From positions 480,001-544,000 of the forward strand of contig CAWFQL010000012.1 of NCBI GenBank assembly GCA_963817915.1: a stretch of 64,000 bases of DNA, written 5' to 3'. The translations under genes were made by a program, and so were the position numbers. This DNA is from an uncultured candidate division Zixibacteria bacterium. GTDB lineage: Bacteria > Zixibacteria > MSB-5A5 > UBA10806. Of the stretch, positions 11,172 to 63,569 are shown piece after piece. Under the pieces are notes generated by a model that was given only the letters and a program-made list of their open reading frames with translations, did not search any database and was not told where the DNA came from. Numbering within the stretch: the first letter of the stretch is position 1; every line of letters starts with the position of its first letter.

Positions 11172-11188
11172 TTACTCTCCTCACAATT

Positions 11189-15505: not shown

Positions 15506-15534
15506 AATATTTCCTCAATACCATTCTGATTTGA

Positions 15535-26047: not shown

Positions 26048-26050
26048 AAA

Positions 26051-27052
26051 TTATACTTCGATCTTTCCACCCATTGTCATCGCCATAACAGCCTTGCAGG
26101 TGTGTAAACGATTTTCCGCTTCGGGATATACCCATGATTGCTTGCCATCGATTACCGAATCCGTCACTTCATTGCCCCTGTCCGCGGGCAGGCAATGCAT
26201 ATAGATAGCGTCCTTTTTCGCTAATGACATCATATGATCGTCGCAAATCCAGTTTTTGTAATTCGCCGCCAATTTCAATGCCTCTTGCGGCTTTCCAAAA
26301 AGCTCCAATATCCCCCAGCTTTTGGGATACACTATGTCGGCATTTTCAAATGCCTCTTCCATTGAATCCGCTATCTCAAATTTCGCCCCATTTTGCGAGG
26401 CATTCTTTCCGGCTAAATCTATTTGGTCCGCCATCAATTTAAATTCCGGCGGATGTGCCAGAACAACATTCATTCCGTATCGTGTCATCAAAGTTATCAG
26501 ACCCTGGGGAACCGATAACGGCTTGGCATAGCTTGGAGCATACGCCCAACTTACAGCGATCTTTTTCCCCTTAAGATTATCGCCGAATTTCTCCTTTATT
26601 GTCATTAAATCCGCTAATGTCTGAAATGGATGATCTATATCGCACTGCATATTGAAAACCGGTACTGTAGCGTGTTTCGCTACTTCGCGCATGTAGCTAT
26701 TTCCTTCGCCAGGTACAAGGTCGTGCCTGATCGCGATGGCGTCCCCATACGATGAAAGGATTATTCCCATATCTTTGGGACTTTCTCCATGGGCCACTTG
26801 TGAAGTCGATGCCTCAATAAAATGAGCGTGCCCGCCTAACTGGGTTATCCCGGCTTCGAACGAATTTCGAGTCCTTGTGGATTTATCAAAAAAGAATAGA
26901 AAAACCGTTTTATCTTCTAAGAGCCTGTGGGGAATTCCATTATGCTTCTTGTTCTTTAAATCTTTTGCCACCTTCAACGCCAATTCTATTTCATCATTAG
27001 ACCATTCCTGCGTTGTGATATAATCTCGACCTGTCAGTTTTTTCGCGTTCAT
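26051..27052 (-). CDS. ygeW: YgeW-like (knotted-type) carbamoyltransferase
   Basis: STRT and HCLP motifs plus YgeW-type WAYAPSYAKPLSVPQG loop and HPFQTLAD. Confidence 0.8.
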   Translation of the reverse strand: MNAKKLTGRDYITTQEWSNDEIELALKVAKDLKNKKHNGIPHRLLEDKTVFLFFFDKSTRTRNSFEAGITQLGGHAHFIEASTSQVAHGESPKDMGIILSSYGDAIAIRHDLVPGEGNSYMREVAKHATVPVFNMQCDIDHPFQTLADLMTIKEKFGDNLKGKKIAVSWAYAPSYAKPLSVPQGLITLMTRYGMNVVLAHPPEFKLMADQIDLAGKNASQNGAKFEIADSMEEAFENADIVYPKSWGILELFGKPQEALKLAANYKNWICDDHMMSLAKKDAIYMHCLPADRGNEVTDSVIDGKQSWVYPEAENRLHTCKAVMAMTMGGKIEV

Positions 27053-27389
27053 TCTCTCGTTTTGCCTTTCACAAAATTAACCATTTCGACGCATTCAATA
27101 TGCGGCAAACAGACTATAAAAATGTTTTGCATTTGATAAGATACACTAAATCATTATGCGGTTGCAAGTTATTTCAATAGTTTAAGATGAGCTTTTATCC
27201 CCGCTGCTAAAACGCCGATAAATGTTCTTGACGAAAATATCTTATTAATTAGATTAAGTATAGACAGTAACTGGTTTTGATTTTTCGATAAATTCAATGG
27301 CTTGGAGTTTTTGCGCCTTCTGCGATAATTAGATGCTGTCGATTTTTCGGGAATTGATGTCCAAGTAAAATTTTGTCAGGAATTAGTTG

Positions 27390-29696: not shown

Positions 29697-29796
29697 CTTT
29701 CGATTATCCCACCCCGGGATCTGCTGCAAATCATTGCACTCGTAAAATTAGCAATTGGCGTCTGTCAACCCTTATATAAAGTCGACCTTACTTTAT

Positions 29797-29867
29797 TGCG
29801 TATCTGTTAATACGCATTTAGTGGGTAATCTATCCGTATTGACTATCACATGGATAAAACATACTTT
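29797..29867 (+). promoter_or_regulatory. Palindromic operator TGCGTAT-ctgtta-ATACGCA (29797-29816) plus sigma70-like promoter TTGACT(29839)-17-TACTTT
   Basis: Perfect 7-6-7 inverted repeat 22 bp upstream of the -35 box; same architecture twice more nearby. Confidence 0.7.
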
Positions 29868-30122
29868 AATCCGGTAAATAGACAATATATTTAAGTTGAT
29901 GCAAACAATTTAAAATTGAATTAGTCCTAATTTCTAATGCTTCCTGACGCTTCCCAAAATATTTCGCGACGAAAAAATGCGAAAAAGGAGTGTATCCATT
30001 GCTAAATCGTCTTAGTAGTACTCAGGTTTTTGCGCATCATATAAATTTCGCGTGCCTGCATGATTCAAGAGAAAATAATTTAACCATAAAAATGATGTTT
30101 ATTGGTGGATTGAGGTGAAAAG

Positions 30123-33100
30123 ATGAAAAGATTGTTATCATTTCTGATTGCTGTAATCATGGTAGCGGTTTGTTCCGCAATTTCGATTGCCGCTACAAAT
30201 GTGAGCCAACCTGTCTATATTACCAATAATGATAGCGAATACGATAGGAGCCCTTCGATTGTCTTTGATGGCTCATACTATTGGCTTTTTTATGTGAAAG
30301 GCGATGACGTCAACGGAGTGCGGGGCTTTAACGGCTACAATCCCGAAAATGATACTTATGTCGTCTATTACAAAAGGGCGACTTCTATAGCTAATCTGCC
30401 TTTGGACGACGAAACCCAGCTCTATCGATCGTCTTCCCAAAGACCTACTAATTTTGACCAATCAATGGTGTCCGCGGCTTACCTTAATAATAAGATATAT
30501 GTTTTTGTCTCCAGCGGTCTTTCGAGCGCTGATAGGGGACTATACTATTATATGTATAGCGGATCTGACTTGGTCAGGCCCGTTCAACCTTATCTCCAAT
30601 TCAATATCTCAGGGTAGCCATGTCAATATCGCCCGCGACAATAGCCACATATATATAGTATGGAGCTCATCCGATGGTAGTACCGATTGCTACACCTGGG
30701 ATGGAATTACACTCAGCTCCAAAATTGATGTAACTGACGATGGCTCGCCTGCAGTTGCCTTGGCGGGAGGCTCGCTTTATGTTGCAGGAACTGATAATAT
30801 CACCGGCGATATCGAGGTTTTTTCTGCTGCGGCCTCAGCAAATCCCGTATTTTCCCATCATTCAACCGCAATGACAGGCTTAATCAATTCCAATGCTGAG
30901 CTATTTAACAATGGTACTTCTCTTTGCCTTATCGCAGTGCCTTATGATAATGCTATCGAAAAGAAAAATCTTATCTATTCCGGATATATCGGTTCATCCT
31001 GGTCTCCGGCCAGAAGGATTAGCAGCGGCGGATATTCGGGCGCGAATTGGTGGGAATTCTCGCCGATCGGCTATAATGATGGTTTCGATTCTTACGTTAT
31101 CTTTTCCATGGAATCAGAAGGGACTACTTATTCTGATGCCGAAATCGCGTTCATAAAACTGAATTGGGATCTGGCCAATGATCACGATTTCCATATCCAA
31201 AATGCCATTAATCTTGCCGCCGATAATGACCAAATCAATGTGTCGGCAGGTGAATACTATGAAAATCAAATCGTGATAGACAAACCGGTTAATATTACCG
31301 GTGCCGGATTGGCCGCCACCATTATTGACGGAAGCAGTGTTACCGGATTACCTGGCTCAGGTCTAATCCGTATTATCGCTCCCGGTAATGTCACATTCAG
31401 CGGCTTCACTCTTCGCAAAGCCGGTAGTGTGAATGGCAGCGATAGATTTGGGATATACGCCAATTCAAGTGTACCCGGTTTCGAGTATAATATCAATAAC
31501 AATAGAATTATCGGCACCAATGATCCCAATGACGCCGGCGACTATGGTGTCTATGCCAGCAGTGGACATGAAAGCTTCAAATTCATTCAAAATGAAATCT
31601 CCGGTACAGGAGCAAATCCGATGCTGGTAGAGCTTCATGAAGGGCCTATCGAAATAAGCGAAAATTCGCTCGATGTCGGTGTGTGGGGGTGTGACGCTAT
31701 TTTTATAATGACCTATGGCGGTTTGGATATTTCGACATTGCAGAAAATCAGCGGTAATAGCATTAATGCCGGCACTGGAGGGCCATTCGACTATGATCAC
31801 AGGGCCTCCGGCATCACATTCGCGAGTGCCTATACAGGAACCCAGGGCAGGTTCTTGAATATCCAGATTACCGACAACACGGTTTATAATCTCAATTCAA
31901 ACCGGAGGGGAATAGGGCTTTGGAATAACGCTCCGGCTGGAAGTGGCAGTATCGGCGATATTGTAAATCCAGTCATTGCTCGTAATACCATAACCGGAGT
32001 GCCGGGTGCTGACCAGAGTCTTGGTATTAGACTGTTGGGACAAATCTCCAACGCCTCTATCATCAACAATTATATTGATGGTGCGGCAGTAGGCTTTAGA
32101 GGACAAATCTGGAATGGTCACATCGCGTTAAATTCAAATATCTACTCCAATAGTTTCACGAATAATACTCTCAATTTAGAATGGCAGGGAGCAGCTGCGA
32201 TTAATGCCTCCGACAACTGGTGGGGGATAAATACGCCATCCGGTGTGGCTTCCCTGGTCAGTCCATTAGTAGATTATACGCCCTGGCTTTATTCCGGCTT
32301 CGATACCGATCCCGGTACCAATGGATTCCAGGGCGACCTGGCAATATTATATGTCGATGACAACAGCTCTCAGACTGGCTCTATAAGCAGAATTCAAGAA
32401 GCAATCAATCAAGTTACCGGTACCAGCGTATTAATCGCTCCCGGCAATTACATCGAGCAGGTGGTGGTCACAAAACCAGGCTTAGTCTTAACAGGTGCTG
32501 GTTCGCACAGCGACCCATTGACAAACACCATAATTCAATCGCCAACTTCACTCACATATTATTTTAGAACAAGCTTGAATAATTATCCTATCATCGGTTT
32601 TGATGGTATTGCAAGTGGCAGCATTCAAAATTGCAGAATTGATGGCGCAGGCAGGGGCAACAGCAATTATCGCTTTGTTGGAATTGGATTCTGGAATGCA
32701 GGCGGCTCTGTGAGTAATTGCATTATTACCGGAATCCAGGATACTCCATTCAGCGGTTCCCAGCATGGAAATGGCATTTATACTTACAATAATACCGGCG
32801 GCCCTTATGTTATTAACGTGGACAATACCGGTATCTACGATTGCCAGAAGAACGGCATGACATTAAGCGGCAACGGCATGACGGCGAATGTGTCAAATTG
32901 TCTGGTTGTCGGTCACGGTCCGACTACCATCACTGCCCAAAATGGTATTCAGATCAGTAACGGTGCGATAGGGACAATAATTGACTCCGAAATTTCAGGC
33001 ATTAATTACACGGGTTCACAAAATGCTTCTGCATCCGGAGTATTGCTTTATTATCCTCCGGGAGCCGTTACCTTAAGCGGGAATAGTATTCATGATTGCC

Positions 33101-34797
33101 AGGGTGCACTCAATGCCTATTTCGCCAGCTCTCTTAACATCGTGGGCAATACCTTCAACCTAAACGGCTTTGCGTTTATATGGGGCGGAATCGGGACGAT
33201 CGTGAATGGCAACACGTTTACAAATAGCGATCAGGCATTGTATGTATCCGATGATACAAACGCGGTATTTAGCAATAATGTCCTTAATACCAACAACTAC
33301 GGAATCATCGCGGATGGCGCTTGCCTTAATCAGAATTATACCGGCAACACGATTACCGGAAATATGGCGACCGGTATTGTTGTTCAACCTTACGATATTT
33401 ACGAACCGGCAGGGATGTCATTCCGGGCTAACAATATCAGCGGGAATGCCTCAGGACTCGAAAATGCAACCTCGAATCTAATAGATGCCACCGGAAATTG
33501 GTGGGGGGATGTGCAGGGCCCGCTGGTATCTACCCTGCGCTCCGGGAATAACCTCAGAGTCAGACCAAATTGGATATCGCGGATGGATGGATCGCCCGAA
33601 GATAAGCCAAATCTCGCCGAAAGATCTCTTCTGCAGAGTGCGTCCGAATCGGGAATCTCGAAACAGAAAATATCAGCTTCAGCCTCCACTTCCCGCGGTG
33701 CTTCGGGCAACACCATAGCCTCGATTCTTACCAATGGCGACGGCATTTCAGGTCTTATTGATTATTCTCCCTGGTGGGGCGCCAATTACGTCGGAGATCC
33801 TCATTCATCACCATGGGGTTGGTGGATGAATCCTTCAAATGCATCCAATATCCAGGAGTCAATCAATTCAGCTTCATCTGGCGATAGCATTCTTGTTCTC
33901 CCCGAAACTTACTCGGGAACCGGCAATTTCAATATTGATTTCGGCGGAAAGAATCTGAGACTATTCGGCGCCGATAGTATCGAGAATGTGATAATAGACT
34001 GTCAACATGCTGGACGGGCCTTCCACTTCCATAGTGGCGAGAGCTCATCGGCAATGGTCAAAGGATTCACGATTAAGAACGGCTCCGCAACCGGAAACGG
34101 TGGAGCGATTCTAATCGAAAATTCAAGTTCCCCGCAAATTCTACATTCTTTGATAATTCAAAATCGGGCCAGCGGTAATGGGGGGGCAATTTGCATTTCA
34201 AATTCCAGCCCGTCTATTAGAAACAACACGATTCTATGGAATAGATCAACGGGCGATGGCGGAGGACTATATATCGCAAACTCCAGTCCCATCGTACTGC
34301 ACACCATTATCTGGCAGGATACCGGGTCTGTCGGAAATGAAATTGCGGCTTCAGGCGGTAGCCCATCGATCACTTACTCTGATATCGACGGCGGTTGGCC
34401 GGGCGAGGGCAATATCGATTGCGATCCCAATTTCTGCGACCCGGAAAACGGCAATTTCTATATTTCAGATCTCTCTTGCTGCCTTAATTCCGGCATAGGC
34501 GGAAATAATATCGGAGCGTTCGAGCTTGGATGCACCGGCGATTTCATCCCTGGCGATGCAAATGCCAGCGGTACTGTCAACGGCCTGGATGTTGTCTATA
34601 TGGTCAATTATTTCAAGGATACCGGGCCGCCTATTCCTGCCCCGATCTGGCGCGCCGATGCCAACGGGAATTGCATGGTGAATGGGTTAGACGTTGTTTA
34701 TATGGTTAATTTCTTTAAAGGCAGCGGCAATGGACCTATCGATGGAGATTGTTTTGGCAGTGGAGTAAGCTCAAGCTCTCAATCAGAGAGCCGTTAG
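30123..34797 (+). CDS. Large secreted protein (~1550 aa): propeller-like N-terminus, three right-handed beta-helix (pectin-lyase-like) regions, C-terminal dockerin; frameshift near 30566
   Basis: GAGGTG RBS and signal peptide; repeated IQ(N/E)(A/S)IN..G(E/N)Y starts and NWWG/DY(T/S)PW caps; GDANASGTVNGLDVVYMVNYFK duplicated at C-terminus. Confidence 0.85.
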
Positions 34798-48900: not shown

Positions 48901-49660
48901 TTAATTACGCTTGAATGGTTTATATCCTATCAAAACAGGGTATTGCTCTTCGGGGGATTTCTCTGAGAAAGTAAAATGGCCATTCTGCGGCTCGAATCCA
49001 ACATCCCTCAAAAGCCCTTCCCATGTATCCAATGAAAATATTCCGCAAATATGCTGGTCGAGTTCGACTCTCAAATCTCCATTCTGGCGAATCAAATAAA
49101 CGAATAATAAGTCATAGATAGTATCATTTGGATTGGGGTCGTAATAATGTTCAAAATAGGTGATTTCGAGCCCGTTATTCGAATGAGTCTGAACCCTTGT
49201 TCTGAATTGCCTGAATTTTTCGGGAGTTTCTTCAGCAACAGTCAATATCATTCCGCCCTGCTTCAAATGGGCAAATGCCGTCTCGAATACGAGCCGCAAA
49301 TCATTTTCAGTAGTCATATACGCGATTGAATCATATATCAACACTATATCGAATTGCTCATTCAGGCGGATATTCCTCATATCGCCCTGAAAGTATTTCG
49401 ATTCCGGGTTTAGATTTCGCGCGATAGATAGCATTTCTTCGCTCAAGATCGATTCCGGTAATATCAAAATGCTGTTTGAATGTCTTATCTATATGACCGC
49501 CTCCGCATCCCAAATGCAGAAGCGTTTTGGGCTGAATTTTGCTGTTTGATACAGCTATATTCGAAAAAAACTCGCCCTCTTCAATATAGTCTTCCGGCGG
49601 GCTCATGACTGGCCAAATCCAGGCCATATCCTTGTATAATCGCTCTTTTTTCCTGTCCAT
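48901..49660 (-). CDS. Class I SAM-dependent methyltransferase; frameshift near 49446
   Basis: LHLGCGGG, GID then shifted LSEEML, QGDMR, HLKQGG. Confidence 0.85.
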
Positions 49661-51245: not shown

Positions 51246-52919
51246 ATGAAAAAATCCAATGTTACTGTCATGATTATGGCAATTTCAATTGCTGTAATTG
51301 GAATATTTACCGCCAATGCCGCGCCGCCGCTAATCAGTTATCAAGCCAAATTATGCGATAGCAGCGGGAATCCTGTCCCCGATGGCAATTATCAAATGAT
51401 CTTTAGCATCTATGGCGATTCCGTTGGTGGGACACCATTGTGGACAGAGGTCCGTCCCGCAGTTTCAACTTCAAGCGGCTATTTCCACCTTAACCTGGGA
51501 AGCACCGAGCCATGGGATGAACGGAATATGCTGGGGCCATCAACACGATATCTGCAAATTCAGATCGGTAGTATGCCTCCGATGTCACCTCGCACGAAAC
51601 TTACCTCAGTCCCTCAATCCGTATTTACTCAAAGGGTGTCCGGGGATATCGAGACATCCGATAGCAGCCTTACGCTTCAGCGGGGAACACAGGCGGTTCG
51701 ATTGCTAAATGGTCCCGAGACAATAGGACTCGTTATAGAGGATAGGCCAACTGATCTTGTAAACGGTAGGGTCTTCCGTGCCGGTATGGATTCCACCGGT
51801 GTCAATTTCGGATTGGATGGTCCTAATGGCAGCAAGATGATCGAAGCCACTGCTCAGTCCGGCGTTGCCGGCAGGGCTAGTTGGGTGATGTTCAATCCCC
51901 AGCCCGAACCGCCCGGTCATGATCCTTTCAGGCTTTTCGAAGTGAGCACAAATGGTCTTGGCCAGGCCAGCTGGGTGATGTTCAACCCTCAGCCGGAACC
52001 GCCTGGCTCTGATCCGTTCAGGTTGTTTGAAGTCAGTACCGGTGTTGGTGGCGAGGCCAGCATGGTCATGTTTAACCCTCAGCCGGAACCGCCCGGTAGC
52101 GATCCGTTTCTTACATTAAGAACAAATGTCAGTGGCGCAAATTTCTCTATGAACGCACCCCAGGCGAGAGGTGCTGCCTTAGTTAATAATCACCCTCAGA
52201 TAAATATCAGGTGCGATAGCACGGCCAGCAGATTGCTTTTGCAGAGGGGGCGCACTATGGTTGGCGGCCCTTCAGATAGCACCGGATTTTCCATGTATGC
52301 CGATTCTGTCAGCAGCGAAATGAGGTTTTTCAATAACAGTAATCTGCAACTGAAAATTACCTCCAACGCAACCGGGGCGACACTGGGTTTTATTGATGAT
52401 GGCAGCGAGTATATGGGTGTAGAACCGGCCCCGTGGCATGCGGGCGGCGAACTCACAATGAGCGATGCTGCAGGCGGTCCGACGCTGGTGTTATCATCAG
52501 ACGGCATGGCCAGTATTGGAACAGGGAATCATACGAATATTCTAACAATAGCTCAATACTCCTCAACCGATCCTATCGCCGATGCCTGGACTACATACAG
52601 CTCACGCAGATGGAAAACCAACATCGAGCCGTTGAAAAATCCATTATCGAAAGTTATGTCTCTGCGGGGCGTATCATTTGATTGGAAAGAGAATGGCAAG
52701 CACGATATCGGTTTCATCGCTGAAGAAGTCGGCGAAATTGTGCCGGAAGTTGTCGCCTACGAAAAGAATGGAATTGATGCGCAATCAGTCGATTATGCTC
52801 GTCTGACTTCCTTGCTCGTTGAAGCGGTGAAAGAACAGCAGAAAATGATAGACGATCTCAAAGCCGAATTAGTTGATTTGAAAGCGGAAATTAACAAAAA
52901 AGCCGATTTGGGCAAATAA
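51246..52919 (+). CDS. Secreted fibre-like protein 1: conserved YQ-domain, FNPQPEPP repeats, C-terminal peptidase S74 intramolecular chaperone
   Basis: Signal peptide; ISYQAKLCDSSGNPV; YSSRRWKTNI..GFIAEEV..VDYARL..LVEAVKEQ coiled coil. Confidence 0.85.
   Translation: MKKSNVTVMIMAISIAVIGIFTANAAPPLISYQAKLCDSSGNPVPDGNYQMIFSIYGDSVGGTPLWTEVRPAVSTSSGYFHLNLGSTEPWDERNMLGPSTRYLQIQIGSMPPMSPRTKLTSVPQSVFTQRVSGDIETSDSSLTLQRGTQAVRLLNGPETIGLVIEDRPTDLVNGRVFRAGMDSTGVNFGLDGPNGSKMIEATAQSGVAGRASWVMFNPQPEPPGHDPFRLFEVSTNGLGQASWVMFNPQPEPPGSDPFRLFEVSTGVGGEASMVMFNPQPEPPGSDPFLTLRTNVSGANFSMNAPQARGAALVNNHPQINIRCDSTASRLLLQRGRTMVGGPSDSTGFSMYADSVSSEMRFFNNSNLQLKITSNATGATLGFIDDGSEYMGVEPAPWHAGGELTMSDAAGGPTLVLSSDGMASIGTGNHTNILTIAQYSSTDPIADAWTTYSSRRWKTNIEPLKNPLSKVMSLRGVSFDWKENGKHDIGFIAEEVGEIVPEVVAYEKNGIDAQSVDYARLTSLLVEAVKEQQKMIDDLKAELVDLKAEINKKADLGK
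51876..52110 (+). repeat. 90-bp tandem repeat (about 2.6 copies) encoding AS(W/M)VMFNPQPEPPG(H/S)DPF
   Basis: Units start at 51876, 51966, 52056. Confidence 0.95.
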
Positions 52920-52933
52920 GGGGGTTGCTAATC

Positions 52934-53479
52934 ATGAAAAAGTATTATGTCTTAATGATAATCCTGTTATTTGCATCATTCGCCAGAGCTCAGACTTATC
53001 GCATAGATTGGTATGTAATCGGTTCTGGCGGCGGTCATTCGCAATCATCTGGATATCAAATTGACGCCACTATAGGGCAGCCGATCGTCGGTTCATCGTC
53101 ATCAGCATCATACATTATCGATGGTGGCTTCTGGGCCGGCGGCGCTCAGGGCGGCGCATGCTCCTATGTCGTCGGCGATGCCAATAACAGCGCCACATTC
53201 AACGGCCTCGATGTTACCTATAGTGTCAACTATTTTCGGGGCGGGGCCGCGCCGCCATATTCCTGCGAATGCACCCCTGGTAACATCTGGTTTGTAGCTG
53301 GCGATGTCAACAACAGTTGTAGTTTCAATGGTCTCGATGTTACCTACATGGTGAATTACTTCAAGGGAGGTTTAAGCCCCAGACCATGCGCGCAATGTCC
53401 GCCGGCGAGGTTTGCCCCAGCTGTATTGCCGATTGTGGAGCCGATACAGAAAACAATCATTAGTGGCTCGAGTGATTAA
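52934..53479 (+). CDS. Small secreted protein 1: IDWYVIGSGGG domain plus dockerin
   Basis: Signal peptide; QTYRIDWYVIGSGGGHSQS..TIGQP..GFW; duplicated GD(A/V)NNS..FNGLDVTY.VNYF. Confidence 0.85.
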   Translation: MKKYYVLMIILLFASFARAQTYRIDWYVIGSGGGHSQSSGYQIDATIGQPIVGSSSSASYIIDGGFWAGGAQGGACSYVVGDANNSATFNGLDVTYSVNYFRGGAAPPYSCECTPGNIWFVAGDVNNSCSFNGLDVTYMVNYFKGGLSPRPCAQCPPARFAPAVLPIVEPIQKTIISGSSD

Positions 53480-53508
53480 TAAATGTAAAATTTGACATCT
53501 ATTTTGAT

Positions 53509-53536
53509 AAGGCGGCCTGCCTTGGCCGCCTTTTTT
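53509..53536 (+). terminator. Intrinsic terminator
   Basis: aaggcggcc-tgcctt-ggccgcctt then tttt. Confidence 0.85.
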
Positions 53537-53540
53537 ATAC

Positions 53541-53588
53541 ATAATGATAATTGTTCTTACTTGACATAAAACTATATAATAGTATATT
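53541..53588 (+). promoter_or_regulatory. Promoter of fibre 2 with abutting Fur-box-like element
   Basis: ataatgataattgttcttac directly before TTGACA(53561)-16bp-TATATT. Confidence 0.5.
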
Positions 53589-53816
53589 TAACCTATATTC
53601 TTCTGACGGACCCCAGCCGTTGAAGATAATTGTTTTTACAAATTAATATCCATTTTTTGAGGGATATCTTCATCCTGAAAATGAATGAAACAATTTTGCA
53701 AATTATGATCCCAAGCATTATGGCGAATAATCTAATTTTAATACAATCATAAGAAATAAGCGCAAAATATGAATATTTTCAATTTGAAAAAAACCAATTT
53801 TAACGGGAGAGACGCA

Positions 53817-56807
53817 ATGAAAATCGCGAAAACAATTTTACTGACAGTATGTGCATTAGTGGCAATGTACACATTCATTTTTGCCGCTGACGCGGGTAAG
53901 ATCGGTTCTTCGGGTAAGCCGGGAGACGCAATCACCTCGGTGCCGCGCACTTTAACTTATCAGGGAATTCTCAAAAACAATACCGGCCAGCCGGTTGCCA
54001 ATGACACGCTCATGGTCACGTTTAGGATTTTCGACCAATTGGCCGGCGGGACTATCTTCTGGAATCGCGATATCAGCGTTCACACTGATGCCCAGGGGAT
54101 GTTCACCGCATTGCTTCCTGAAATGAACCTGTCATTCGGTAACGACTACTATCTTGAGATGCAGATCGATGTAGCGGGCCCCATGACTCCGCGCCAGATG
54201 CTGACCATGTCTCCTTATGCCGCTCGTTCAGATACTGCGGATTTTGCGGCTAACGCTTCCTCCAACTGGACTGTGAGCAATTCTGTTATTCAGACCAGCA
54301 ACTATTGGGGAATAGCCCGCGGCAATGCTGGCAATGTGTTATTAGGTGATAGCGCTCGTACGATGGTGAATCTCGGCGTCGCCTGTACCACGGGAACCAT
54401 CAGCTATAGTCCATCTTTTTCTACAGTTGGCGGTGGTTTGGGAAATTCTGCCGGCGGCGAATTTGCAAATGTTAGCAGTGGGCATAATAATACAGCCGGG
54501 GGCTCGTCAGCTTCTATCGGAGGCGGTAGTGGCAATAATGCCAGCGGCGGGGCATCCGTGATCGCCGGAGGGTACAGCAATACTGCCGGCGGCCCGAATT
54601 CTACGGTCGCAGGGGGGAATAGCAACACCGCCCCTGGTCAGAACGCTACCGTAGGCGGCGGCGGTAACAATTTTGCTAATGGCAACAACTCCACCGTTGG
54701 CGGGGGATGGTATAACATTACCAACGGCGATTCGAGCTTCGTAGGCGGCGGTCTTCACAATAGTATCCACGGCGTTGGTGGCACAATTGGCGGCGGAAGG
54801 GCAAATACTGTTTCAATGGAATATAGTGCCATTACTGGCGGAGAATTAAACAACGCCAATAGCTATAATGACTTTATCGGTGGCGGTTATGGGAATACCG
54901 TCAATGGTGGCCATAGTGTCATAGGTGGCGGAGGTAATAATATCGTAAATGGCTCCCAAAGCGTGATAGTCGGAGGAAGCCAAAATATCGCTGATTCTTC
55001 AAATTCATTTATTGGCGGCGGAGCATATAATCATGCGTCCGGACACTATAGTACAATCGCAGGAGGGGGGGCTAATAGCGCCTTGGGATCGAGGAGCACC
55101 ATTGGCGGCGGAAGATATAATTCCGCTGGAGATACAGCTTTTGTCGGAGGGGGATCTTATAATAACGCGTCGGGGATAAGTAGTACTATCGGGGGTGGTT
55201 CATCAAATACCGCAAGCGGCCCCAATGCTACCATTAGCGGCGGCCAGAGCAACGCTGCAACCGGGCCGTACGGTACCGTTGGTGGAGGCATACGGTAATA
55301 TAGCCAATGCAAGGTCCGCCATTGCTGGAGGAACTGGCAATATGGCTCTTGAGCAGGAGGTCTCTATTGGTGGAGGGGCTAACAACACAGCCAATGGTTT
55401 TAGAAGCACAATTGCCGGCGGTGCTATTAATACGGCCTCGGGCAATTACAGTATTGTGAGCGGAGGACTCCAGAATAACGTCGGCGGAGCTTTCGCGGGC
55501 GTAGCTTCAGGATGGCAAAACACTGCAGGAGATGCCGCAAGTGATACAGGCGCATTCGTTGGTGGGGGTCGATCCAATTCCGCAACAGGAATGTACAGCA
55601 CAATCTGCGGAGGCAGTGGCAATCTATGCAGTTGGGCAATAGTAGCCGACAGTGGCAGGGGGAGGATAGTAATTACGTAGCAAGATTCCAGTTTGCAATA
55701 TCGGTGGGGGTAGCTATAATCGCGCAACCGGTGATTCGAGTTTCGTAGGCGGCGGCGGCCACAACATTGCCGGCGGAAATAGCAGCACGGTGAGTGGCGG
55801 CCGAAACAATAGCGCAAGCGGCGACGCGAGCACTATCGGCGGTGGTGAAATTAATACTGCGAGTAGCGCAGGCGCTGCAATAGGCGGTGGGGGCGGTAAT
55901 ACTGCAAGCGCTATGTATAGCTATATTGGCGGCGGCGCTGCCAATTACGCCCCAGGTAAATTTGCCGCGGTTAGCGGCGGATGTACCAATTCGGCCACCG
56001 GTGACTCGAGTTTCGTGGGTGGCGGTAGTAATAATACTGCCAGCGGAGTTGGCAGCTACTGTCGGAGGAGGTCCAACACCAGATGCAATGCTAGCGGCGG
56101 ACAATAGGCGCTACAATCGAGCGGTGGCGTAAACAATGCTGCCAGCCTGGATTATGCAACGGTAAGCGGTGGTGTCATACAATAACTGCCAACGGCCAAT
56201 ATTCTGTGATAGGTGGCGGAACCAACAATACGGCCAGTGGCACAGCACTCTACTGTATGTGGGGGAGACGGCAATGTTGTCAGCGGGCGGCTGTAAGTAT
56301 GGCTTTTGGGAGTGTGTTCATCTACTAACATTCACTTGCGGTTGGCTTATTCGAATCCAGCGAATTCAGGTCGTCTTGGGCGTAAATCGCGATGACAATG
56401 ATGGTGGAATAAATTACCCAATTCACGTTGGCACGAGTACTTCCAACGGCAATGGCGCTTATCTGACAGCAGGCGGTGTTTGGACTAATGGCTCCTCGCG
56501 CACCTTCAAAGAGAATTTCACTCCATTTAATGGCTCTGAATTGCTCTCCAAAATTTCGAATTTATCGATTACCACATACAATTACAAAAATAGCGCTGAG
56601 AAGCATGTCGGCCCCGTGGCTGAAGATTTTGTGGGTGCGTTCGATACTGGCGTGATCCGCGAATCCGACAGCAAACGCGATGACATGTATCTGTCCTCCG
56701 GAGACGTAGCAGGTGTAGCATTGGCCGGAGTGCAGGAATTGATAAAGAAGATTGAGCAGTTAGAAAAAGAAATAGCGGAACTGAAAGCCCAGCAGGGAAA
56801 GAGGTAA
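53817..56807 (+). CDS. Secreted fibre-like protein 2: YQ-domain, long 15-aa Gly-rich repeat stalk, S74 chaperone; several frameshifts at about 55290-56370
   Basis: GGGAG RBS, signal peptide, LTYQGILKN; STxGGGxxNxA repeats; NGSSRTFKENF..HVGPVAEDF..ALAGVQEL. Confidence 0.8.
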
Positions 56808-56811
56808 TTTT

Positions 56812-57369
56812 ATGATCAATAAAATTTTGATTTTGATAGCAATTTGTTCTCCCCTATGCTTGGCCCAGAACTATCAGATTGACTGGTATGTCATCGGATC
56901 TGGCGGAGGCCATAGTCAATCATCTAATTATCAAATTGACGGCACCATTGGCCAGCCGATTGTGGGACAATCTTCTTCGGCAAATTATCAAGTCGACGCC
57001 GGTTTTTGGGTAGGCGGCGCTCAGGGCGGCGGATGCTCGTATGTTGTCGGCGACGCCAATAATAGCGCCACATTCAATGGTCTCGATGTCACTTACAGTG
57101 TAAATTATTTCAAGGGCGGGGCCGCGCCGCCATATTCCTGCGAATGCACTCCTGGTAACACCTGGTTTGTCGCTGGCGATGTCAACAATAGCTGCAGCTT
57201 CAATGGCCTTGATGTTACCTATATGGTCAATTACTTCAAAGGTGGAGCCGGGCCGATAGCATGCGCGCAATGTCCGCCGGGTGGAATTGCAGCATCTCCG
57301 GCAGTAATAACGCCGTCTGGTACACAGGCCAATGATAAGCCGAATATGGAACAGGGCTCCAGTAAATAG
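56812..57369 (+). CDS. Small secreted protein 2: IDWYVIGSGGG domain plus dockerin
   Basis: Same architecture as 52934-53479; starts 4 nt after fibre stop. Confidence 0.87.
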   Translation: MINKILILIAICSPLCLAQNYQIDWYVIGSGGGHSQSSNYQIDGTIGQPIVGQSSSANYQVDAGFWVGGAQGGGCSYVVGDANNSATFNGLDVTYSVNYFKGGAAPPYSCECTPGNTWFVAGDVNNSCSFNGLDVTYMVNYFKGGAGPIACAQCPPGGIAASPAVITPSGTQANDKPNMEQGSSK

Positions 57370-57393
57370 AATTATATAATCAAATTTACAATC

Positions 57394-57434
57394 AGGCCGG
57401 GATCATTAGAATATGGTTTCGGCCTTATTTTATT
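57394..57434 (+). terminator. Probable intrinsic terminator
   Basis: aggccgggatcat/atggtttcggcct stem then tattttatt. Confidence 0.65.
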
Positions 57435-57594
57435 CAAATGTAATACAATTCTATAAAAGCTGTTTTGACATTACTAATTTATTAAAAGATAACAAAAAAT
57501 ACTTGACAATATAGAGGCCATTGCCTACATAAAGGTGTCCGACATTATAAGTATTAGTAAAATAGTTGAAATCTTAATATCCGGAGGCCTCACC

Positions 57595-59001
57595 ATGTTA
57601 AAGAAAGCCGTTGTTATTTGGTTGATGTGCTTAGCGTCCTTTGCATTCGGACAGCAAATTTTGTTTATCCCCGCTGGTAGTTATGAAGTGGGTATCCAAC
57701 CCTATGCGGTATTTTCTGCTGACCTTGACGGAAATGGGAATGATGACTTAGCAATAGCAAATTATGGTTCAAATAGCGTAACTATCCTCAAGAACAATGG
57801 CGATGGAGCTTTTCAGCAACCTGTAAATTATCCAGTGGGAAGTGAACCTATATCAGTACTTGCGGCCGATCTTAATGGGGACGGAGATAACGACCTTGCC
57901 GTGTCTTATCTTAATTCCAATTGCGTTTCCATACTTATGAATAACGGTGACGGGATTTTTCAGGATACCATCAATTATGTCGCCGGAAATTCAGAATTTC
58001 CATTAATTGCGGCCGATTTTGATGGGGACGGGAATAAGGATTTAGCTATCACAAAAGCCGGTGCACACGGCATTAGCATTTTGTATAATGGCGGAAATGG
58101 TATTTTTCAGAATGCTGTCAATGTTGAGATAGGGGAACGGGCAACCTGTGGTTTTGCCGCTGATCTCGATGGAGATAGTGATATGGACATTGCGGTGGGA
58201 TGTCAAGATTCTCATAGAGTTTCAATTCTGCGTAACAGCGGGAACAGAACTTTCGAACCACCGATTTTTTTCGCAGCAGGAGATTATCCCGTTTCTATCT
58301 TCGCCGCGGATTTTGACGGTAATGGAACTAATGACCTTGCAATCGGAAATGCATACTCAAGCGATATTTCCATTCTGCTTAATAACGGGGATGCGACATT
58401 TAATACACCCATCAATTATGGCGGGGGAAATGGTCCATATACATTGTTTGCGGCCGATTTTGACGGTGACGGAGATTATGATTTGGCAACAGCATGGCAG
58501 CAAGCAGTTTCGGTATTAAGGAATTACGGTAACGGCACTTTCCAAGAAAGAACCACCTTTGGAACTGGTGGGTGGCCGTTTTCTGTCTATGCTGCCGATT
58601 TCAATGGAGATGGGGTAAAGGATCTAGCTTATACAGACTACGACTATAATACCGTCTCTATCAGATTTGGCAGTGGTAGTATTGGTTGTTTGTACACGGT
58701 CGGCGATGCCAACGGAAGCGGCATCTTCAATGGTCTCGATGTAACCTACAGCGTCAATTATTTCCGAGGCACTGGCAATTTGCCCCCTAATTTCTGCGAA
58801 TGCCATCCTCTTAACGGTCTGTTTGTATCGGGCGATGTCAACAACAGCTGTAGCTTCAATGGCCTGGACGTAACCTACATGGTGAATTATTTCAAGGGCG
58901 GGGCGGCGCCTATGCCTTGTGCGAGTTGTTCGCCGGCGGGAGCAATACCGCCTTTAAAAGTGCCGGGTGAGAAAGCCATCGAGAGTGGCGTAAGTGATTG
59001 A
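57595..59001 (+). CDS. Secreted FG-GAP/VCBS beta-propeller protein with C-terminal dockerin
   Basis: GGAGG RBS, signal peptide, seven AD(L/F)(D/N)G(D/N)..D(L/I)A repeats, GDANGSGIFNGLDVTYSVNYF. Confidence 0.9.
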   Translation: MLKKAVVIWLMCLASFAFGQQILFIPAGSYEVGIQPYAVFSADLDGNGNDDLAIANYGSNSVTILKNNGDGAFQQPVNYPVGSEPISVLAADLNGDGDNDLAVSYLNSNCVSILMNNGDGIFQDTINYVAGNSEFPLIAADFDGDGNKDLAITKAGAHGISILYNGGNGIFQNAVNVEIGERATCGFAADLDGDSDMDIAVGCQDSHRVSILRNSGNRTFEPPIFFAAGDYPVSIFAADFDGNGTNDLAIGNAYSSDISILLNNGDATFNTPINYGGGNGPYTLFAADFDGDGDYDLATAWQQAVSVLRNYGNGTFQERTTFGTGGWPFSVYAADFNGDGVKDLAYTDYDYNTVSIRFGSGSIGCLYTVGDANGSGIFNGLDVTYSVNYFRGTGNLPPNFCECHPLNGLFVSGDVNNSCSFNGLDVTYMVNYFKGGAAPMPCASCSPAGAIPPLKVPGEKAIESGVSD

Positions 59002-59034
59002 ATACTAAAGAGATAATAATTGTTTTTACACAGG

Positions 59035-59058
59035 GCGGTCCTTGGGGCCGCTTTTTTT
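59035..59058 (+). terminator. Intrinsic terminator
   Basis: gcggtcc-ttg-gggccgc then 7 T. Confidence 0.8.
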
Positions 59059-59070
59059 AATCTTTATTCC

Positions 59071-59118
59071 TTATTGATAGTTATTCCTACTTGACAAAAA
59101 ACGAATCTTATATATTTT
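59071..59118 (+). promoter_or_regulatory. Promoter of fibre 3, homologous to fibre 2 promoter
   Basis: ttattgatagttattcctac directly before TTGACA(59091)-16bp-TATTTT. Confidence 0.5.
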
Positions 59119-59356
59119 AAAAGCATATTCCTCAGCAGGTTCATTGGCCTGCGCTCTTGAACATTTTGAAAATGTAACGACCATGATTTTAAGGCATATC
59201 TGTATTGATATCACAAGGATTTTATCTGTGTATCGATTCAAAGAACCTGATGGCGTATTTTTCAGTTTAGTAACGAGCATATGGAATATCAATGTCGACT
59301 AATCTGCCAAAATGAAATTTAATATCCTTCATGAGTTGCAACAAGGGAGAAAGAAA

Positions 59357-61525
59357 ATGAAGATTTCGAAACTGTTCTCGATTTTTATTTTTGCCACCAT
59401 TATTTTCGCTGATAATTCACTACTAGCTGGAAATCTTGGCAAAAATAAATTTGACGAATCATTCATAAACACTATTACCAATTTTGCAATACAGCGCATC
59501 TTGACTTATCAGGGTATCTTGAAGGACAATTTGGGAAATCCAGTTCCCGATGCCTCATATAATATTGTATTCAGAATTTACAGTACTTCAGTAGGCGGTT
59601 CGGCACTTTGGGGCAGCCCGTCAGTACAGGTAACAACGAATCACGGGCTATTCTCAACCTCAATTGGTCCGATATCACTGCCGTTCGATACCCCGTACTA
59701 CTTGTCTCTGCAGGTCGGTGCGGATCCCGAAATGGCGCAAAGACAGACATTGACCATGACTCCATACTCCGCCAGTGCGGATTCAGCCAATCACTCTATT
59801 TCATCTGATACCAGTACAACAGCTCGCAACGTTCTGGATAATAGCATCACCAGCGCGAAAATAGTTAATGGCACGATCCTATTTACAGATATCGCTCAAA
59901 ATGGAGCGATCAAGCGGTCAGGTGATGAAATGGAACGGTGCGTCTTGGGTGGCCAGTAACGATTCCATCGGCGGCGGAAGCGGCAATACAGGCTGGGTAG
60001 ATGCAGGGACGATAGTATCTTTATCAAGCCTGGGCGATTCGGTTGGCATCGGCACTTCGGCTCCCACAGCCAAGCTTCAAATTGAAGGAACACTAAAAGT
60101 CGCAGACAAGGCCAATATCGGGCCGTCTAATACAAACGCAGGATTGAACGCCTTCGTAGCCGGATCGCAAAATATTGCCAGCGCAAATTATAGTACTGTC
60201 GGAGGAGGGCAAAATAACTCGGCTCAGGCGATATATGGCTCCATAAACGGCGGGAATAGTAACAATGTTGGCGGAAGCTACGGCACGGTAAGCGGTGGGC
60301 TTGGTAATAATGCCGCAAATAATTATAGCGCAATCGGCGGCGGTTTCGAGAATTCGGGAGACGGAGAATATAGCTCTATAAGCGGGGGATACCAGAATAC
60401 CAGCGCAGGTTTAGTGGGGGCCATATCAGGAGGACAGGGTAACACTACCAACGCTTATGCCGATTTTATCGGCGGCGGAGCCTTTAATTCTGTTTATGGC
60501 CTTACCGGTACTATTTGCGGAGGTCAGCAGAATCTTGTCAGCAATGACCATGGCACGATCGGCGGCGGAATGGCGGATACGGTCATGGGGGTCTTCGGCG
60601 GAGTAGCTTCGGGATATTCCAATCTTGCCGGTGATGCGGCGACAGATTCGGGAGCATTTGTGGGTGGCGGTTACAATAATTCGGCGATGGCGTTTAATTC
60701 AATTGTCGTAGGCGGATACAATAATACGGCCGCCGGTGATAATTCAATTGTCAGCGGAGGTTATAATAATTCCGCGACAGGAGCCAATTCGACCGTAGCG
60801 GGCGGAAATTCTAATTCAGCTACAGGCGGCACTTCTGCTATTGGCGGCGGAACTAATAATGTCGCGAGCATCGATTGCGCTGTTGTCACGGGGGGGTGCT
60901 TCAATACGGTTTTGGGGAGCAGTTCCGCAATTTGCGGCGGTGTTCAAAACTATGTCAGCGGAACTGCCAGCGTTATTACCGGCGGAGCCTTTAATCATAT
61001 ACTTGCTGATTACGTAATGGCCTTTGGCGGCAATGTCCGCATTACCAACCCATATCGGATCGGCTTTTTTAATTCGATTTCGCCGGGGCGTCTCGGGCTA
61101 AATCGGGATGATAATGACGGCGGCATAAATTATCCGATTACTGTGGGCACGAATACTTTCAATGGCAACGGAGCCTATCTGACTGCGGGCGGCGTCTGGA
61201 CCAATGGCTCTTCGCGGACATTCAAAGAGAATTTTACGCCATTCAATGGCTCATGAATTGCTTTCCAAAATATCAAATCTATCGATTACTACATACAATT
61301 ACAAAAATACACCGAGAAGCACATCGGCCCTGATGGCCGAGGATTTTGTCGGGGCATTCGATACCGGCGTCATCCGCGAATCCGACGGCAAGCGCGATGA
61401 TATGTACTCTATCGTCCGGAGACGTGGCAGGCGTTGCATTGGCCGGAGTGCAGGAATTGATAAAGAAGATTGAGCAGTTGGAAAAAGAAATAGCGGAGCT
61501 GAAAGCTCAGCAGGGAAAGAGGTAA
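59357..61525 (+). CDS. Secreted fibre-like protein 3: YQ-domain, 15-aa Gly-rich repeats, S74 chaperone; frameshifts near 59910 and 61250-61415
   Basis: GGGAG RBS, signal peptide, LTYQGILKD, GQVMKWNG, GIGT..P..KL, NGSSRTFKENF; 3' end nearly identical to fibre 2. Confidence 0.8.
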
Positions 61526-61529
61526 TTTT

Positions 61530-62090
61530 ATGATTAAGAAAATTTTGCTTTATATACTTATTAACGCTCCGCTCTGCCTGGCCCAGAACTATCGTATCGA
61601 CTGGTATGTCATCGGATCTGGCGGAGGCCATAGTCAATCATATAATTATCAGATTGACGGCACCATCGGCCAGCCAATAGTAGGACAATCATCTTCAGCA
61701 AACTATCAAGTCGATGCAGGTTTTTGGGTTGGGTTTGCCAGCCCGCATGGCGGCTGCGTTTATGTTGTAGGGGATGCTAACAATAGTGCCACATTCAACG
61801 GTCTCGACGTTACCTACAGCGTCAATTATTTCAAGGGCGGCGCCGCGCCTCCATACAGCTGCGAATGCACACCGGGCAATACATGGTTCGTCTCCGGCGA
61901 TGTCAACAACAGCTGCAGCTTCAATGGCCTTGATGTCACTTACATGGTAAATTATTTCAAGGGTGGAGCAGGCCCTATGCCTTGCGCCGATTGTCCCCCG
62001 GCGGGAATTGCAGTATCTGCAGGCTCAACATTACCAACTGATGCACAAATACCAATTAAGCCAAATATTACACTGAGCCCCAGCAAGTAA
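61530..62090 (+). CDS. Small secreted protein 3: IDWYVIGSGGG domain plus dockerin
   Basis: Same architecture as copies 1 and 2; starts 4 nt after fibre stop. Confidence 0.87.
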   Translation: MIKKILLYILINAPLCLAQNYRIDWYVIGSGGGHSQSYNYQIDGTIGQPIVGQSSSANYQVDAGFWVGFASPHGGCVYVVGDANNSATFNGLDVTYSVNYFKGGAAPPYSCECTPGNTWFVSGDVNNSCSFNGLDVTYMVNYFKGGAGPMPCADCPPAGIAVSAGSTLPTDAQIPIKPNITLSPSK

Positions 62091-62112: not shown

Positions 62113-62148
62113 GGGCCGGAATCATCCTAAGGCGATTCCGGCCTTTTC
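62113..62148 (+). terminator. Intrinsic terminator
   Basis: ggccggaatc ... gattccggcc then tttt. Confidence 0.8.
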
Positions 62149-62321: not shown

Positions 62322-63569
62322 ATGAAGAGGATAGCTTCAAATTTGGGAAAGTTTGTGCTTCTGATTTTTGCCGGTGTCTTATTAATACCGGTTTTTTTAT
62401 CCGCTCAAAATCTTGAATTTATGTCAAGTTACGCATTGCCAGATGGTGCGTATGGGATCACTTTGGTCAATAATCTTGCGTATATCGCCAATGATATCAA
62501 TGGTATTCAGATACTGGATATTACCGACCCTTACAATCCCTCTGGAGTAGGCAGCTATGACACGCCGGGGTTTACTAGAAACTTGGTTGTTTCCGCAAAT
62601 TATGCCTATGTGGCCGATGGTGAAGGCATTGTGATTCTCGATATTTCCAATCCCGCGGCTCCAGGCTTTGTGGGCTCGAGAGCCCTGGGCGGCACAGCGC
62701 TCACTGTTGCTCTTTCGGGTAATTACCTCTATGTGGCCAATGGATACAACGGCATGATGGTTATTGACGTTTCCAATCCTGCTGATCCGACTACTGCCGG
62801 TTTTTACAGTTCTTTTGGATATCTCATGGGAGTTTGCGTGCAGGGCAATTATGCATTCGTCACGGCGAATTATACCGAGCCCGATTATGGCCAGCTCATA
62901 GTATTAGATATTAGCAATCCGGCCAATCCCACCTGGATGGGGGATGTTAATATTAATTATGCGGGCGCCTACGGAGTCAGCATTTCGGGCGATTATGCTT
63001 TTGTGGGAGCATTTACCTATGGCATGCGAATATTTGATATTTCCTACCCGCCTTCACCCGCAATTTCCAGCGCGTATGATACGCCAGGCTCCTGCAAGCA
63101 TATATTCTCAGTTGGCAATTATGCCTTTGCAGCCGATGGTCTCTCAGGCATTGAAATGTTCGATATCACCGATCGAAACTACCCAATATTGCTTGATAGT
63201 GTCGATACGCCCGGCAATGCTTACGATGTCATTGCTGCAGGCGAATATGTTTATATAGCAGATGAATCATCCATGGAAATCTACAAAATCACGCAGGCCC
63301 AGCCGCCAACATGCAGCTATGTCACTGGTGATATTAATGGAAGCAATACCCTAAATGGGCTGGATGTAACCTACGGCGTTAACTATTTTAGGGGCGGCGC
63401 TGAGCCTCCATATACATGTGAATGTACTCCCGGCAATATCTGGTTTGTAGCAGGCGATGTCAACGCTAGCTGTTCCTTCAACGGCCTCGATATTACCTGG
63501 ATGGTAAATTACTTTAGGGGCGCTGAGCCTCCGATGTCATGTCCAGATTGCCCGTCAGCGCGCCGCTGA
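62322..63569 (+). CDS. Secreted LVIVD-repeat beta-propeller protein with C-terminal dockerin
   Basis: GGAG RBS, signal peptide, repeated YAYVA..G..I(L/F)DIS(N)P..P..VGSYDTPG, GDINGSNTLNGLDVTYGVNYF. Confidence 0.9.
   Translation: MKRIASNLGKFVLLIFAGVLLIPVFLSAQNLEFMSSYALPDGAYGITLVNNLAYIANDINGIQILDITDPYNPSGVGSYDTPGFTRNLVVSANYAYVADGEGIVILDISNPAAPGFVGSRALGGTALTVALSGNYLYVANGYNGMMVIDVSNPADPTTAGFYSSFGYLMGVCVQGNYAFVTANYTEPDYGQLIVLDISNPANPTWMGDVNINYAGAYGVSISGDYAFVGAFTYGMRIFDISYPPSPAISSAYDTPGSCKHIFSVGNYAFAADGLSGIEMFDITDRNYPILLDSVDTPGNAYDVIAAGEYVYIADESSMEIYKITQAQPPTCSYVTGDINGSNTLNGLDVTYGVNYFRGGAEPPYTCECTPGNIWFVAGDVNASCSFNGLDITWMVNYFRGAEPPMSCPDCPSARR

What the first reader, a model, noticed from the sequence alone, without database searches (positions are those of the whole stretch)
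51246..62090. Thrice-repeated two-gene cassette: anchorless S74 trimeric fibre plus small dockerin adaptor
Seen: three fibre genes each have a signal peptide, a conserved ~110-aa N-terminal domain (YQ.(K/I)L....G.PV....F.I(Y/F)....GG...W....G.F......YL..Q.....M..R..LT..P), a variable middle and a C-terminal S74 chaperone (SSRRWK / SSRTFK). Each is followed within 4-14 nt by a ~180-aa gene with a near-invariant IDWYVIGSGGGHSQS..TIGQP..GFW domain and a dockerin. Neighbouring propeller proteins carry their own dockerin, but the fibres do not. Established: S74 domains drive trimer folding and cleave themselves off, so a C-terminal anchor would be lost. Inference: the small protein binds the fibre N-domain and docks phage-tail-like fibres onto a cohesin scaffold, a modular surface-display system I do not know to have been described. 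No phage structural genes are present.
Basis: partly seen in the sequence, partly recalled or inferred. Interest (0 to 1): 0.85.

Follow-up and report, generated by a model that had tools for sequence, protein, structure and literature searches.

The report
Three-armed adaptor docks trimeric surface fibres
This uncultured bacterium pairs phage-tail-like surface fibres that have no anchor of their own with a small protein whose 50-residue, three-repeat module is predicted to clamp the base of the three-chain fibre and tie it to the cell, and the same module on other anchors travels with such fibres in many bacteria and some archaea.

Summary
The three fibre + small-gene cassettes are real. Fibres 2 and 3 are frameshifted here, probably assembly errors. 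A fourth pair lies elsewhere in this Zixibacteria-like genome. The fibres are distant relatives of Bdellovibrio MAT fibres, whose surface anchor was unidentified in 2024.

The partner's 50-residue module has three 19-residue repeats and no confident fold alone. In a model with three fibre base domains it scored 0.89 (best control 0.19; mark reached by 116 of 157 solved and 2 of 215 mismatched pairs), one repeat pairing with each protomer.

The two domains co-occur: both in 74 of 121 Xanthomonadales genomes (neither in 41) and in 14 of 101 Chloroflexota (neither in 85). The module's tail swaps among dockerin, T9SS-type and membrane anchors. It also matches the N-terminus of the CPR pilus-tip protein PamT, a link I did not see in earlier notes.

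The genome has cohesins with T9SS-type tails, SprA and PorV. S74 is not essential (61 of 81 paired fibres show none), many fibres lack an adjacent adaptor, and Bdellovibrio was not testable. The scan noted this gene pair before on other genomes. Binding is predicted, not shown.

The parts
51246..52919 (+). Fibre F1, intact (557 aa): signal peptide, MAT-like base domain, variable middle, S74 chaperone
51321..51617 (+). F1 base (N) domain: Ig-like beta-sandwich; edge strand YQAKL is the predicted adaptor-binding strand
52599..52919 (+). F1 S74 domain (SSRRWK: Ser and Lys of the SDxxxK motif kept, Asp replaced by Ser)
52934..53479 (+). Adaptor A1: signal peptide, 50-aa three-repeat module, dockerin-like tail
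52991..53140 (+). A1 fibre-capture module (19-aa period); matches PamT model positions 30-77
53159..53398 (+). A1 Cys-rich duplicated dockerin-like domain
53509..53532 (+). terminator-like hairpin closing cassette 1
53817..56807 (+). Fibre F2: base domain 53940-54257, long Gly-rich repeat shaft, S74 from 56493; frameshifted several times in this assembly
56812..57369 (+). Adaptor A2
57394..57425 (+). terminator-like hairpin closing cassette 2
57595..59001 (+). FG-GAP repeat protein with its own dockerin (neighbour in the same display system, not part of the pair)
59357..61525 (+). Fibre F3: base domain 59489-59806, Gly-rich shaft, S74 from 61209; frameshifted in this assembly
61530..62090 (+). 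Adaptor A3
62129..62145 (+). terminator-like hairpin closing cassette 3
62322..63569 (+). LVIVD repeat protein with dockerin-like tail (neighbour)

Best explanation
A two-part surface-display system for trimeric adhesive fibres.
1. Fibre and adaptor cross the inner membrane by Sec (inferred from leaders).
2. The fibre trimerises. Where an S74 domain is present it assists and cuts itself off (shown for Bdellovibrio Bd3182, inferred here).
3. One adaptor chain, poorly folded alone, folds onto the base of one trimer. Each of its three 19-residue repeats adds a beta-strand to the conserved YQGxL edge strand of a different protomer, a 1:3 pseudo-threefold clamp (predicted).
4. The adaptor's C-terminal part supplies the address. 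Here it is a dockerin, which would plug into cohesins on T9SS-tailed scaffold proteins, so a tag-less fibre is exported or retained by piggy-backing (inferred). Other lineages use a T9SS-type tail, a Chloroflexota YLP tail or a membrane helix.
Fibre tips vary freely, and one adaptor type serves many fibres. The likely job is adhesion to surfaces, polymers or other cells.
For: Model: complex score 0.89 in runs 0.89/0.87/0.89 against best control 0.19; runs share >=91% of contacts; partner pLDDT >=86; mark reached by 116 of 157 solved and 2 of 215 mismatched pairs. Strand 7-12 of copies 1, 2 and 3 pairs with adaptor 23-28, 42-44 and 9-10, as I had predicted in note 1. No sequence relative of either domain in the PDB (best E 0.14 and 0.53). 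19-aa period: z 4.1, p 0.0012.

This genome: 4 of 4 base-domain genes are followed by an adaptor.

Genome co-occurrence: Zixibacteria-phylum sample, base domain in 148 of 151, adaptor in 143 of 151, all adaptor-positive genomes base-positive. Xanthomonadales: both 74, base only 5, adaptor only 1, neither 41 of 121. Chloroflexota: both 14, one each alone, neither 85 of 101.

Adjacency: fibre gene within 700 nt on the same strand for 35 of 47 genome loci (23 of the 27 with >=3.5 kb upstream) and 39 of 80 metagenome loci (12 of 13 with enough flank).

Anchors: 0 of 194 base-domain ORFs carry a dockerin or the CTD motif. The genome has SprA and 11 or more PorV-family loci over cut-off, 64 dockerin ORFs, 89 CTD-motif ORFs, none with both, and 7 cohesin-like ORFs, 5 ending in a CTD-type tail.
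Against: - Binding is a prediction from one job with my own alignments; its layout (3+1 chains) is unlike the calibration.
- Only 24 of 60 Zixibacteria regions cut around base-domain hits hold an adaptor.
- Pseudomonadota sample: 7 of 9 base-positive genomes had no adaptor hit. Divergent adaptors turned up on inspection in one (G486), none near the fibre in the other six.
- Halobacteriota sample: 3 of 5 base-positive genomes had no adaptor hit.
- Three adaptor loci with long flanks have no fibre nearby (L045, L070, L082).
- Base and adaptor sequence distances are not correlated beyond shuffles (r 0.13).
- Dockerin scores of A1-A3 are under the Pfam cut-off.
- Two of three fibres are frameshifted as assembled.
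Confidence: 0.72

Rival explanations
1. The module binds the fibre base but only as a folding or export escort (chaperone or secretion ticket). It is released afterwards or leaves with the fibre, and the fibre is held by something else or is free.
For: The module is unstructured alone (pLDDT 46). Adaptor matches are much rarer than fibre matches in many genomes (e.g. G081 18 against 1, G121 25 against 5), which suits a reusable escort. Some tails are secretion signals.
Against: Many tails are retention devices (dockerin 29 of 150, membrane helices). All 52 module residues lie in the predicted interface, which looks permanent. Gene count does not fix protein stoichiometry.
Confidence: 0.15
2. 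The two genes are co-regulated parts of one surface structure but do not touch, or the adaptor works as its own homo-oligomer (3:3 or a lattice) and the 1:3 model is a modelling artefact.
For: Orphan fibres and some orphan adaptors exist. 5 of 150 adaptor proteins have three tandem modules. The 3:3 layout was not tested.
Against: Score 0.89 against controls 0.19, 0.00 and 0.10; the repeat-to-protomer register matches the independently measured 19-aa period. Two-module proteins (16 of 150) outnumber three-module ones, which fits independent units.
Confidence: 0.1
3. The cassettes are phage, tailocin or gene-transfer-agent tail-fibre genes, or decaying remnants.
For: F1's tail hits 42 PHROG families, mostly tail fibres. 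F2 and F3 are frameshifted. Earlier unchecked notes report a capsid gene set elsewhere in this genome.
Against: The PHROG hits shown fall on the C-terminal part with the S74 domain. One of 84 base domains has a weak PHROG hit. No base-domain match in 50,697 phage records (single-sequence search) or IMG/VR. Signal peptides are present, flanks are metabolic, and substitutions between paralogues are mostly synonymous.
Confidence: 0.03

Closest known systems
MAT (mosaic adhesive trimer) fibres of Bdellovibrio bacteriovorus, S74 and non-S74 subgroups (Caulton et al. 2024, PMC10769870; NCBIfam NF053851)
   Same: Signal peptide, conserved beta-rich base domain, variable shaft and tip, optional self-cleaving S74 domain, multi-copy, chromosomal. 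Base domains match NF053851 weakly.
   Different: Scores far below the family cut-off (27 against 60 bits); motif SSxxxK, not SDxxxK; host not known to be predatory. A partner gene is attached here. The paper says the surface element that binds the base domain awaits identification. Whether Bdellovibrio has this adaptor was not testable.
PamT, tip subunit of the CPR Pam pilus (Troman et al. 2026 preprint, PMC13278184; NCBIfam NF058579)
   Same: The adaptor module matches PamT model positions 30-77 (54 of 84 module-only sequences at E<=0.001, best 1e-8, no other family hit). The preprint reports a tail fibre-like gene that co-localises with pam operons.
   Different: PamT is described as a single truncated Ig domain, and the text I read gives this N-terminal stretch no role. 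The proteins here lack the rest of PamT, and no pilus family was hit in the window.
Cohesin-dockerin display of cellulosomes (Pfam PF00404/PF00963; recalled)
   Same: Duplicated calcium-loop dockerin at the C-terminus of many secreted proteins (63 of 64 within 60 aa of the end), with few cohesin scaffolds.
   Different: Diderm host, scaffolds with T9SS-type tails, Cys-rich dockerin, and a cargo that attaches through a separate adaptor.
Donor-strand complementation in chaperone-usher and Pam pili; trimeric autotransporter adhesins (recalled, except the Pam text)
   Same: A strand given in trans extends a partner's beta-sheet; a trimeric adhesin is held at its base.
   Different: One chain gives three strands to three protomers, not one to one. 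The anchor is a separate, exchangeable gene at the N-terminal end, not a fused C-terminal barrel.

Membership tests
MAT fibres | Signal peptide followed by conserved ~130-aa beta-rich N-domain | tested here: met
   leaders by eye; beta-sandwich at pLDDT 88; 53 of 84 relatives hit NF053851 at E<=0.001
MAT fibres | NF053851 score over curated cut-off (60 bits) | tested here: not met
   14.5-28.3 bits, covering only model positions ~2-77 of 162
MAT fibres, S74 subgroup | C-terminal S74 domain with SDxxxK motif | tested here: inconclusive
   PF13884 over cut-off; Ser and Lys present but Asp is Ser; cleavage not testable
MAT fibres | Trimeric fibre | tested here: inconclusive
   three base domains assemble around the adaptor with pLDDT 86-87; three copies were imposed and the full fibre was not folded
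MAT fibres | Surface location and ligand binding by the tip | not testable with these tools
   needs cells or purified protein
PamT | Full-length match to NF058579 (240 bits) with truncated Ig domain | tested here: not met
   25-27 bits, model positions 17-78 of 241 only
PamT | Shared N-terminal module | tested here: met
   54 of 84 and 81 of 126; the Gly-rich F2 and F3 shafts do not hit the model
Type I dockerin | Two duplicated Ca-binding loop-helix motifs | tested here: met
   duplicated GD.N...FNGLDVTY motif
Type I dockerin | PF00404 over cut-off | tested here: not met
   18.3-18.7 against 22.9 bits for A1-A3; many phylum relatives carry PF00404
Type I dockerin | Binds a cohesin | not tested
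   cohesin domains present; the single complex job went to the fibre-adaptor pair
T9SS-type export | SprA translocon and PorV shuttle | tested here: met
T9SS-type export | PorK/L/M/N motor and ring, PorU sortase | not tested
   not searched
Prophage or tailocin | Tail tube, sheath, baseplate or lysis genes beside the fibres | tested here: not met

The most novel reading that the evidence does not exclude
The 50-residue module is a general prokaryotic fibre clamp: a pseudo-threefold peptide that converts any single-chain sorting signal into an anchor for any MAT-type trimer. In Zixibacteria it makes cellulosome-like fibre arrays that ride the T9SS without a tag. In CPR bacteria it sits on PamT, so Pam pili would be tipped by the neighbouring tail-fibre-like trimer, the real host-recognition adhesin. 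A diverged version would be the missing Bdellovibrio MAT anchor.
Probability: 0.4. Interest if true: 0.92.

Novelty: new variant of a known kind. Interest (0 to 1): 0.8.

Why it matters
It gives a concrete, testable answer to a question left open in print: what holds MAT-type fibres on the cell. The base domain is near-universal in this phylum (148 of 151 genomes, up to 30 matches each) and is common in Xanthomonadales, Chloroflexota and a few archaea, so the display route would be widespread and unstudied. The PamT match predicts how CPR episymbionts could arm their pili. A 50-residue tag that captures a trimer 1:3 would also be a useful protein-engineering part.

Tried and rejected
- Read check of the frameshifts: no sequencing run was listed; no evidence either way.
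- ESM Atlas: only weak unnamed hits (best 0.85).
- Fold search of the base domain: best Z 6.9, generic beta-sandwiches; inconclusive.
- Natural fusion of base domain and module: none in 270 proteins or the locus ORFs.
- Mirror-tree signal between paired domains: none.
- Attempts to reach CPR PamT or Bdellovibrio sequences with context failed: (one partial viral hit). The PamT link rests on HMM matches only.
- Literature: no description of the adaptor or of Zixibacteria dockerins (open-access library only). Supplement file 1 of PMC10769870 gave no hit for my terms and file 2 is unreadable pictures. The Pam preprint's supplements were not seen and may bear on PamT's N-terminus and the identity of the tail fibre-like gene.
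- Rejected: S74 cleavage as the reason for the adaptor; strict one-to-one pairing; prophage origin.
- The tail classes come from rough patterns (at least one FlgD-type tail, P0211, was misfiled).
- Alignment A7 held a wrong-strand row and was not used.
Full report
OBSERVATION. The window holds three cassettes of a fibre gene followed after 14, 4 and 4 nt by a small gene, each closed by a terminator-like hairpin. The fibres share a ~105-residue domain after the leader (27-35% identical) and end in S74 motifs. The small proteins share a 50-residue module (78-93% identical) and a duplicated dockerin-like tail that scores under the Pfam cut-off. Only F1 is open; F2 and F3 are frameshifted several times. 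Their tails differ at 47 synonymous and 6 non-synonymous codons and housekeeping genes in the window are split as well, so I read the breaks as assembly errors. This is an inference; no reads were listed. A fourth pair lies at C4:24-2224; its fibre has no S74 hit. The closest named relatives of the adaptor are mostly Zixibacteria.

WHAT THE FIBRES ARE. The base domain has no Pfam family but hits NCBIfam Bdello_MAT_N weakly. 53 of 84 relatives do so at E<=0.001, and no other family is hit. It folds as an Ig-like sandwich (pLDDT 88) with only generic structural matches (best Z 6.9). Caulton et al. 2024 (PMC10769870; passages and the whole Discussion read) define MAT fibres by a signal peptide, such a domain and an optional S74 with SDxxxK. 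They write that the domain presumably binds a surface element whose identification awaits study. The passages I saw of a 2026 review (PMC13689555) name no anchor. The fibres work like MATs and are distant relatives, but they fail the curated cut-off. A phage origin is unlikely: the base domain was not found in 50,697 phage records or IMG/VR, and flanking proteins have no PHROG hits.

DO THE TWO DOMAINS TRAVEL TOGETHER? In 151 genomes of the window's phylum (own genome included) the base domain was found in 148 and the module in 143; the three base-less genomes also lack the module. Samples where presence is patchy, each including its seed genome, are more telling. Xanthomonadales: both 74, base only 5, module only 1 (weak), neither 41 of 121. 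Chloroflexota: both 14, one each alone, neither 85 of 101. Kin are not independent, so I give no p-value. Adaptor genes have a fibre gene within 700 nt on the same strand in 35 of 47 genome loci (23 of 27 with at least 3.5 kb upstream) and 39 of 80 metagenome loci (12 of 13 with enough flank).

The link is asymmetric. Only 24 of 60 Zixibacteria regions cut around base-domain hits hold an adaptor, and one run of about a dozen fibre genes ends in a single adaptor (L114 and L249). Against the model: 7 of 9 base-positive genomes in a 251-genome Pseudomonadota sample and 3 of 5 in a 151-genome Halobacteriota sample gave no module hit. On inspection G486 had two divergent modules that the search missed, one head-to-head with a fibre. 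The other six Pseudomonadota showed none near the fibre. Of 81 neighbouring pairs, 20 fibres have S74 and 61 do not, so S74 is incidental.

ANCHOR SWAPPING. The module is nearly always N-terminal (first copy within 110 residues in 147 of 150); 3962 representatives score E<=0.001. By rough patterns, the tails among the best 150 are about 74 Chloroflexota-type YLP tails, 29 dockerins, a few T9SS/FlgD-type domains and membrane helices, and 32 other or truncated (the tail labels are partly recalled). An archaeal fibre is followed directly by an adaptor with a membrane helix and basic tail (L224/L233). None of 194 base-domain ORFs carries a dockerin or CTD motif itself. In this genome 64 ORFs have a dockerin and 89 the CTD motif, none both. 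Seven ORFs are cohesin-like, five of them with CTD-type ends (three by pattern, two by eye). SprA and the PorV family are present over cut-off.

HOW THEY FIT. The module has a 19-residue period (Tyr at 3, 22, 41; z 4.1; p 0.0012 against column shuffles) and no confident fold alone (pLDDT 46, AlphaFold2). I noted beforehand that three repeats might bind three protomers. I folded three F1 base domains with one A1 module, using alignments of neighbouring pairs. The result was 0.89 (0.89, 0.87, 0.89) against controls 0.19, 0.00 and 0.10; runs share at least 91% of contacts; partner pLDDT was at least 86 (a different program). The mark was reached by 116 of 157 solved and 2 of 215 mismatched pairs, counts that hold only roughly for this layout. 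Residues 7-12 of copies 1, 2 and 3 pair with module residues 23-28, 42-44 and 9-10, one repeat per protomer. Ten of the 17 best-conserved base positions lie in the interface. Neither domain has a sequence relative in the PDB, which makes recall of a solved complex less likely. The model supports binding; it does not show it. A 3:3 arrangement was not tested.

THE PamT LINK. The module matches positions 30-77 of the NCBIfam model of PamT, the proposed tip subunit of the CPR Pam pilus: 54 of 84 module-only sequences at E<=0.001, no other family. Troman et al. (PMC13278184; abstract, introduction, results and discussion read; supplements not seen) describe PamT as a single truncated Ig domain. 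They also report a tail fibre-like gene that consistently co-localises with pam operons. The prediction is that one PamT captures one fibre trimer at the pilus tip, which matches 1:3. I could not obtain a PamT sequence or locus, so this is a lead at HMM level. A look-up of earlier notes for PamT with fibre, pilus and tip gave 96 findings; the 8 shown concern giant adhesins or anchors, not this module.

WHAT IS NEW. I found no description of the adaptor in eight literature searches. The scan has noted the gene pair on other genomes (7 of the 8 notes), with binding unproven; a word search for a complex prediction returned nothing. New here are the controlled 1:3 model, the repeat structure that explains it, presence/absence counts in five samples, and the PamT match.

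VERDICT. A real and widespread two-gene module: MAT-like fibre plus an unnamed clamp on exchangeable anchors. Physical binding is likely (about 0.8); the full dockerin-cohesin-T9SS display route is less certain. New variant of a known kind, interest 0.8.

Noticed in passing
window 51880-52115: F1's middle has three tandem ~20-aa repeats centred on FNPQPEPPG, unlike the Gly-rich shafts of F2 and F3.
   Followed up: no
window 2724-6225, 6180-7872, 12427-13770, 30123-34797, 48901-49660: Several ordinary genes appear split by frameshifts (AcrB, transglutaminase-like, amidohydrolase, beta-helix dockerin protein, methyltransferase); the assembly probably has many indel errors.
   Followed up: partly
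window 30123-34797: ~1570-aa beta-helix protein with C-terminal dockerin over the Pfam cut-off; another client of the cohesin system.
   Followed up: no
window 8145-27052: Large purine/pyrimidine catabolism-like cluster (XdhC, two xanthine dehydrogenase-type sets, adenine deaminase, dihydropyrimidine dehydrogenase-like pair, carbamoyltransferase).
   Followed up: no
G000:C18:8205-12176 and 24957-32397; C7:22161-27767; C11:106800-107348: Cohesin-like proteins, most with T9SS-type tails; one with cohesin plus dockerin, one stand-alone cohesin.
   Followed up: partly
G000:C12:120329-125974: 1984-aa SprA homologue and 11 or more PorV-family loci in a Zixibacteria-like genome.
   Followed up: partly
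L114 and L249 (G100:C1:188900-205600): Tandem array of about a dozen base-domain fibre genes ending in one adaptor-dockerin gene.
   Followed up: partly
L228 (G393:C90:1-1983): Archaeal FG-GAP protein with a base-like domain at its C-terminus, followed by a small secreted Ser/Gly/Tyr-rich protein with a membrane tail; possibly a very diverged adaptor.
   Followed up: no
L238:102-3860 (-) and L239:4418-6499 (+): Large proteins in G486 with a diverged module at the N-terminus, one ending in a dockerin-like motif and lying head-to-head with a fibre gene.
   Followed up: partly
P0121, P0142, P0152, P0160, P0186: Adaptor proteins with three tandem modules (16 others of 150 have two); would display several fibres on one anchor.
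   Followed up: no
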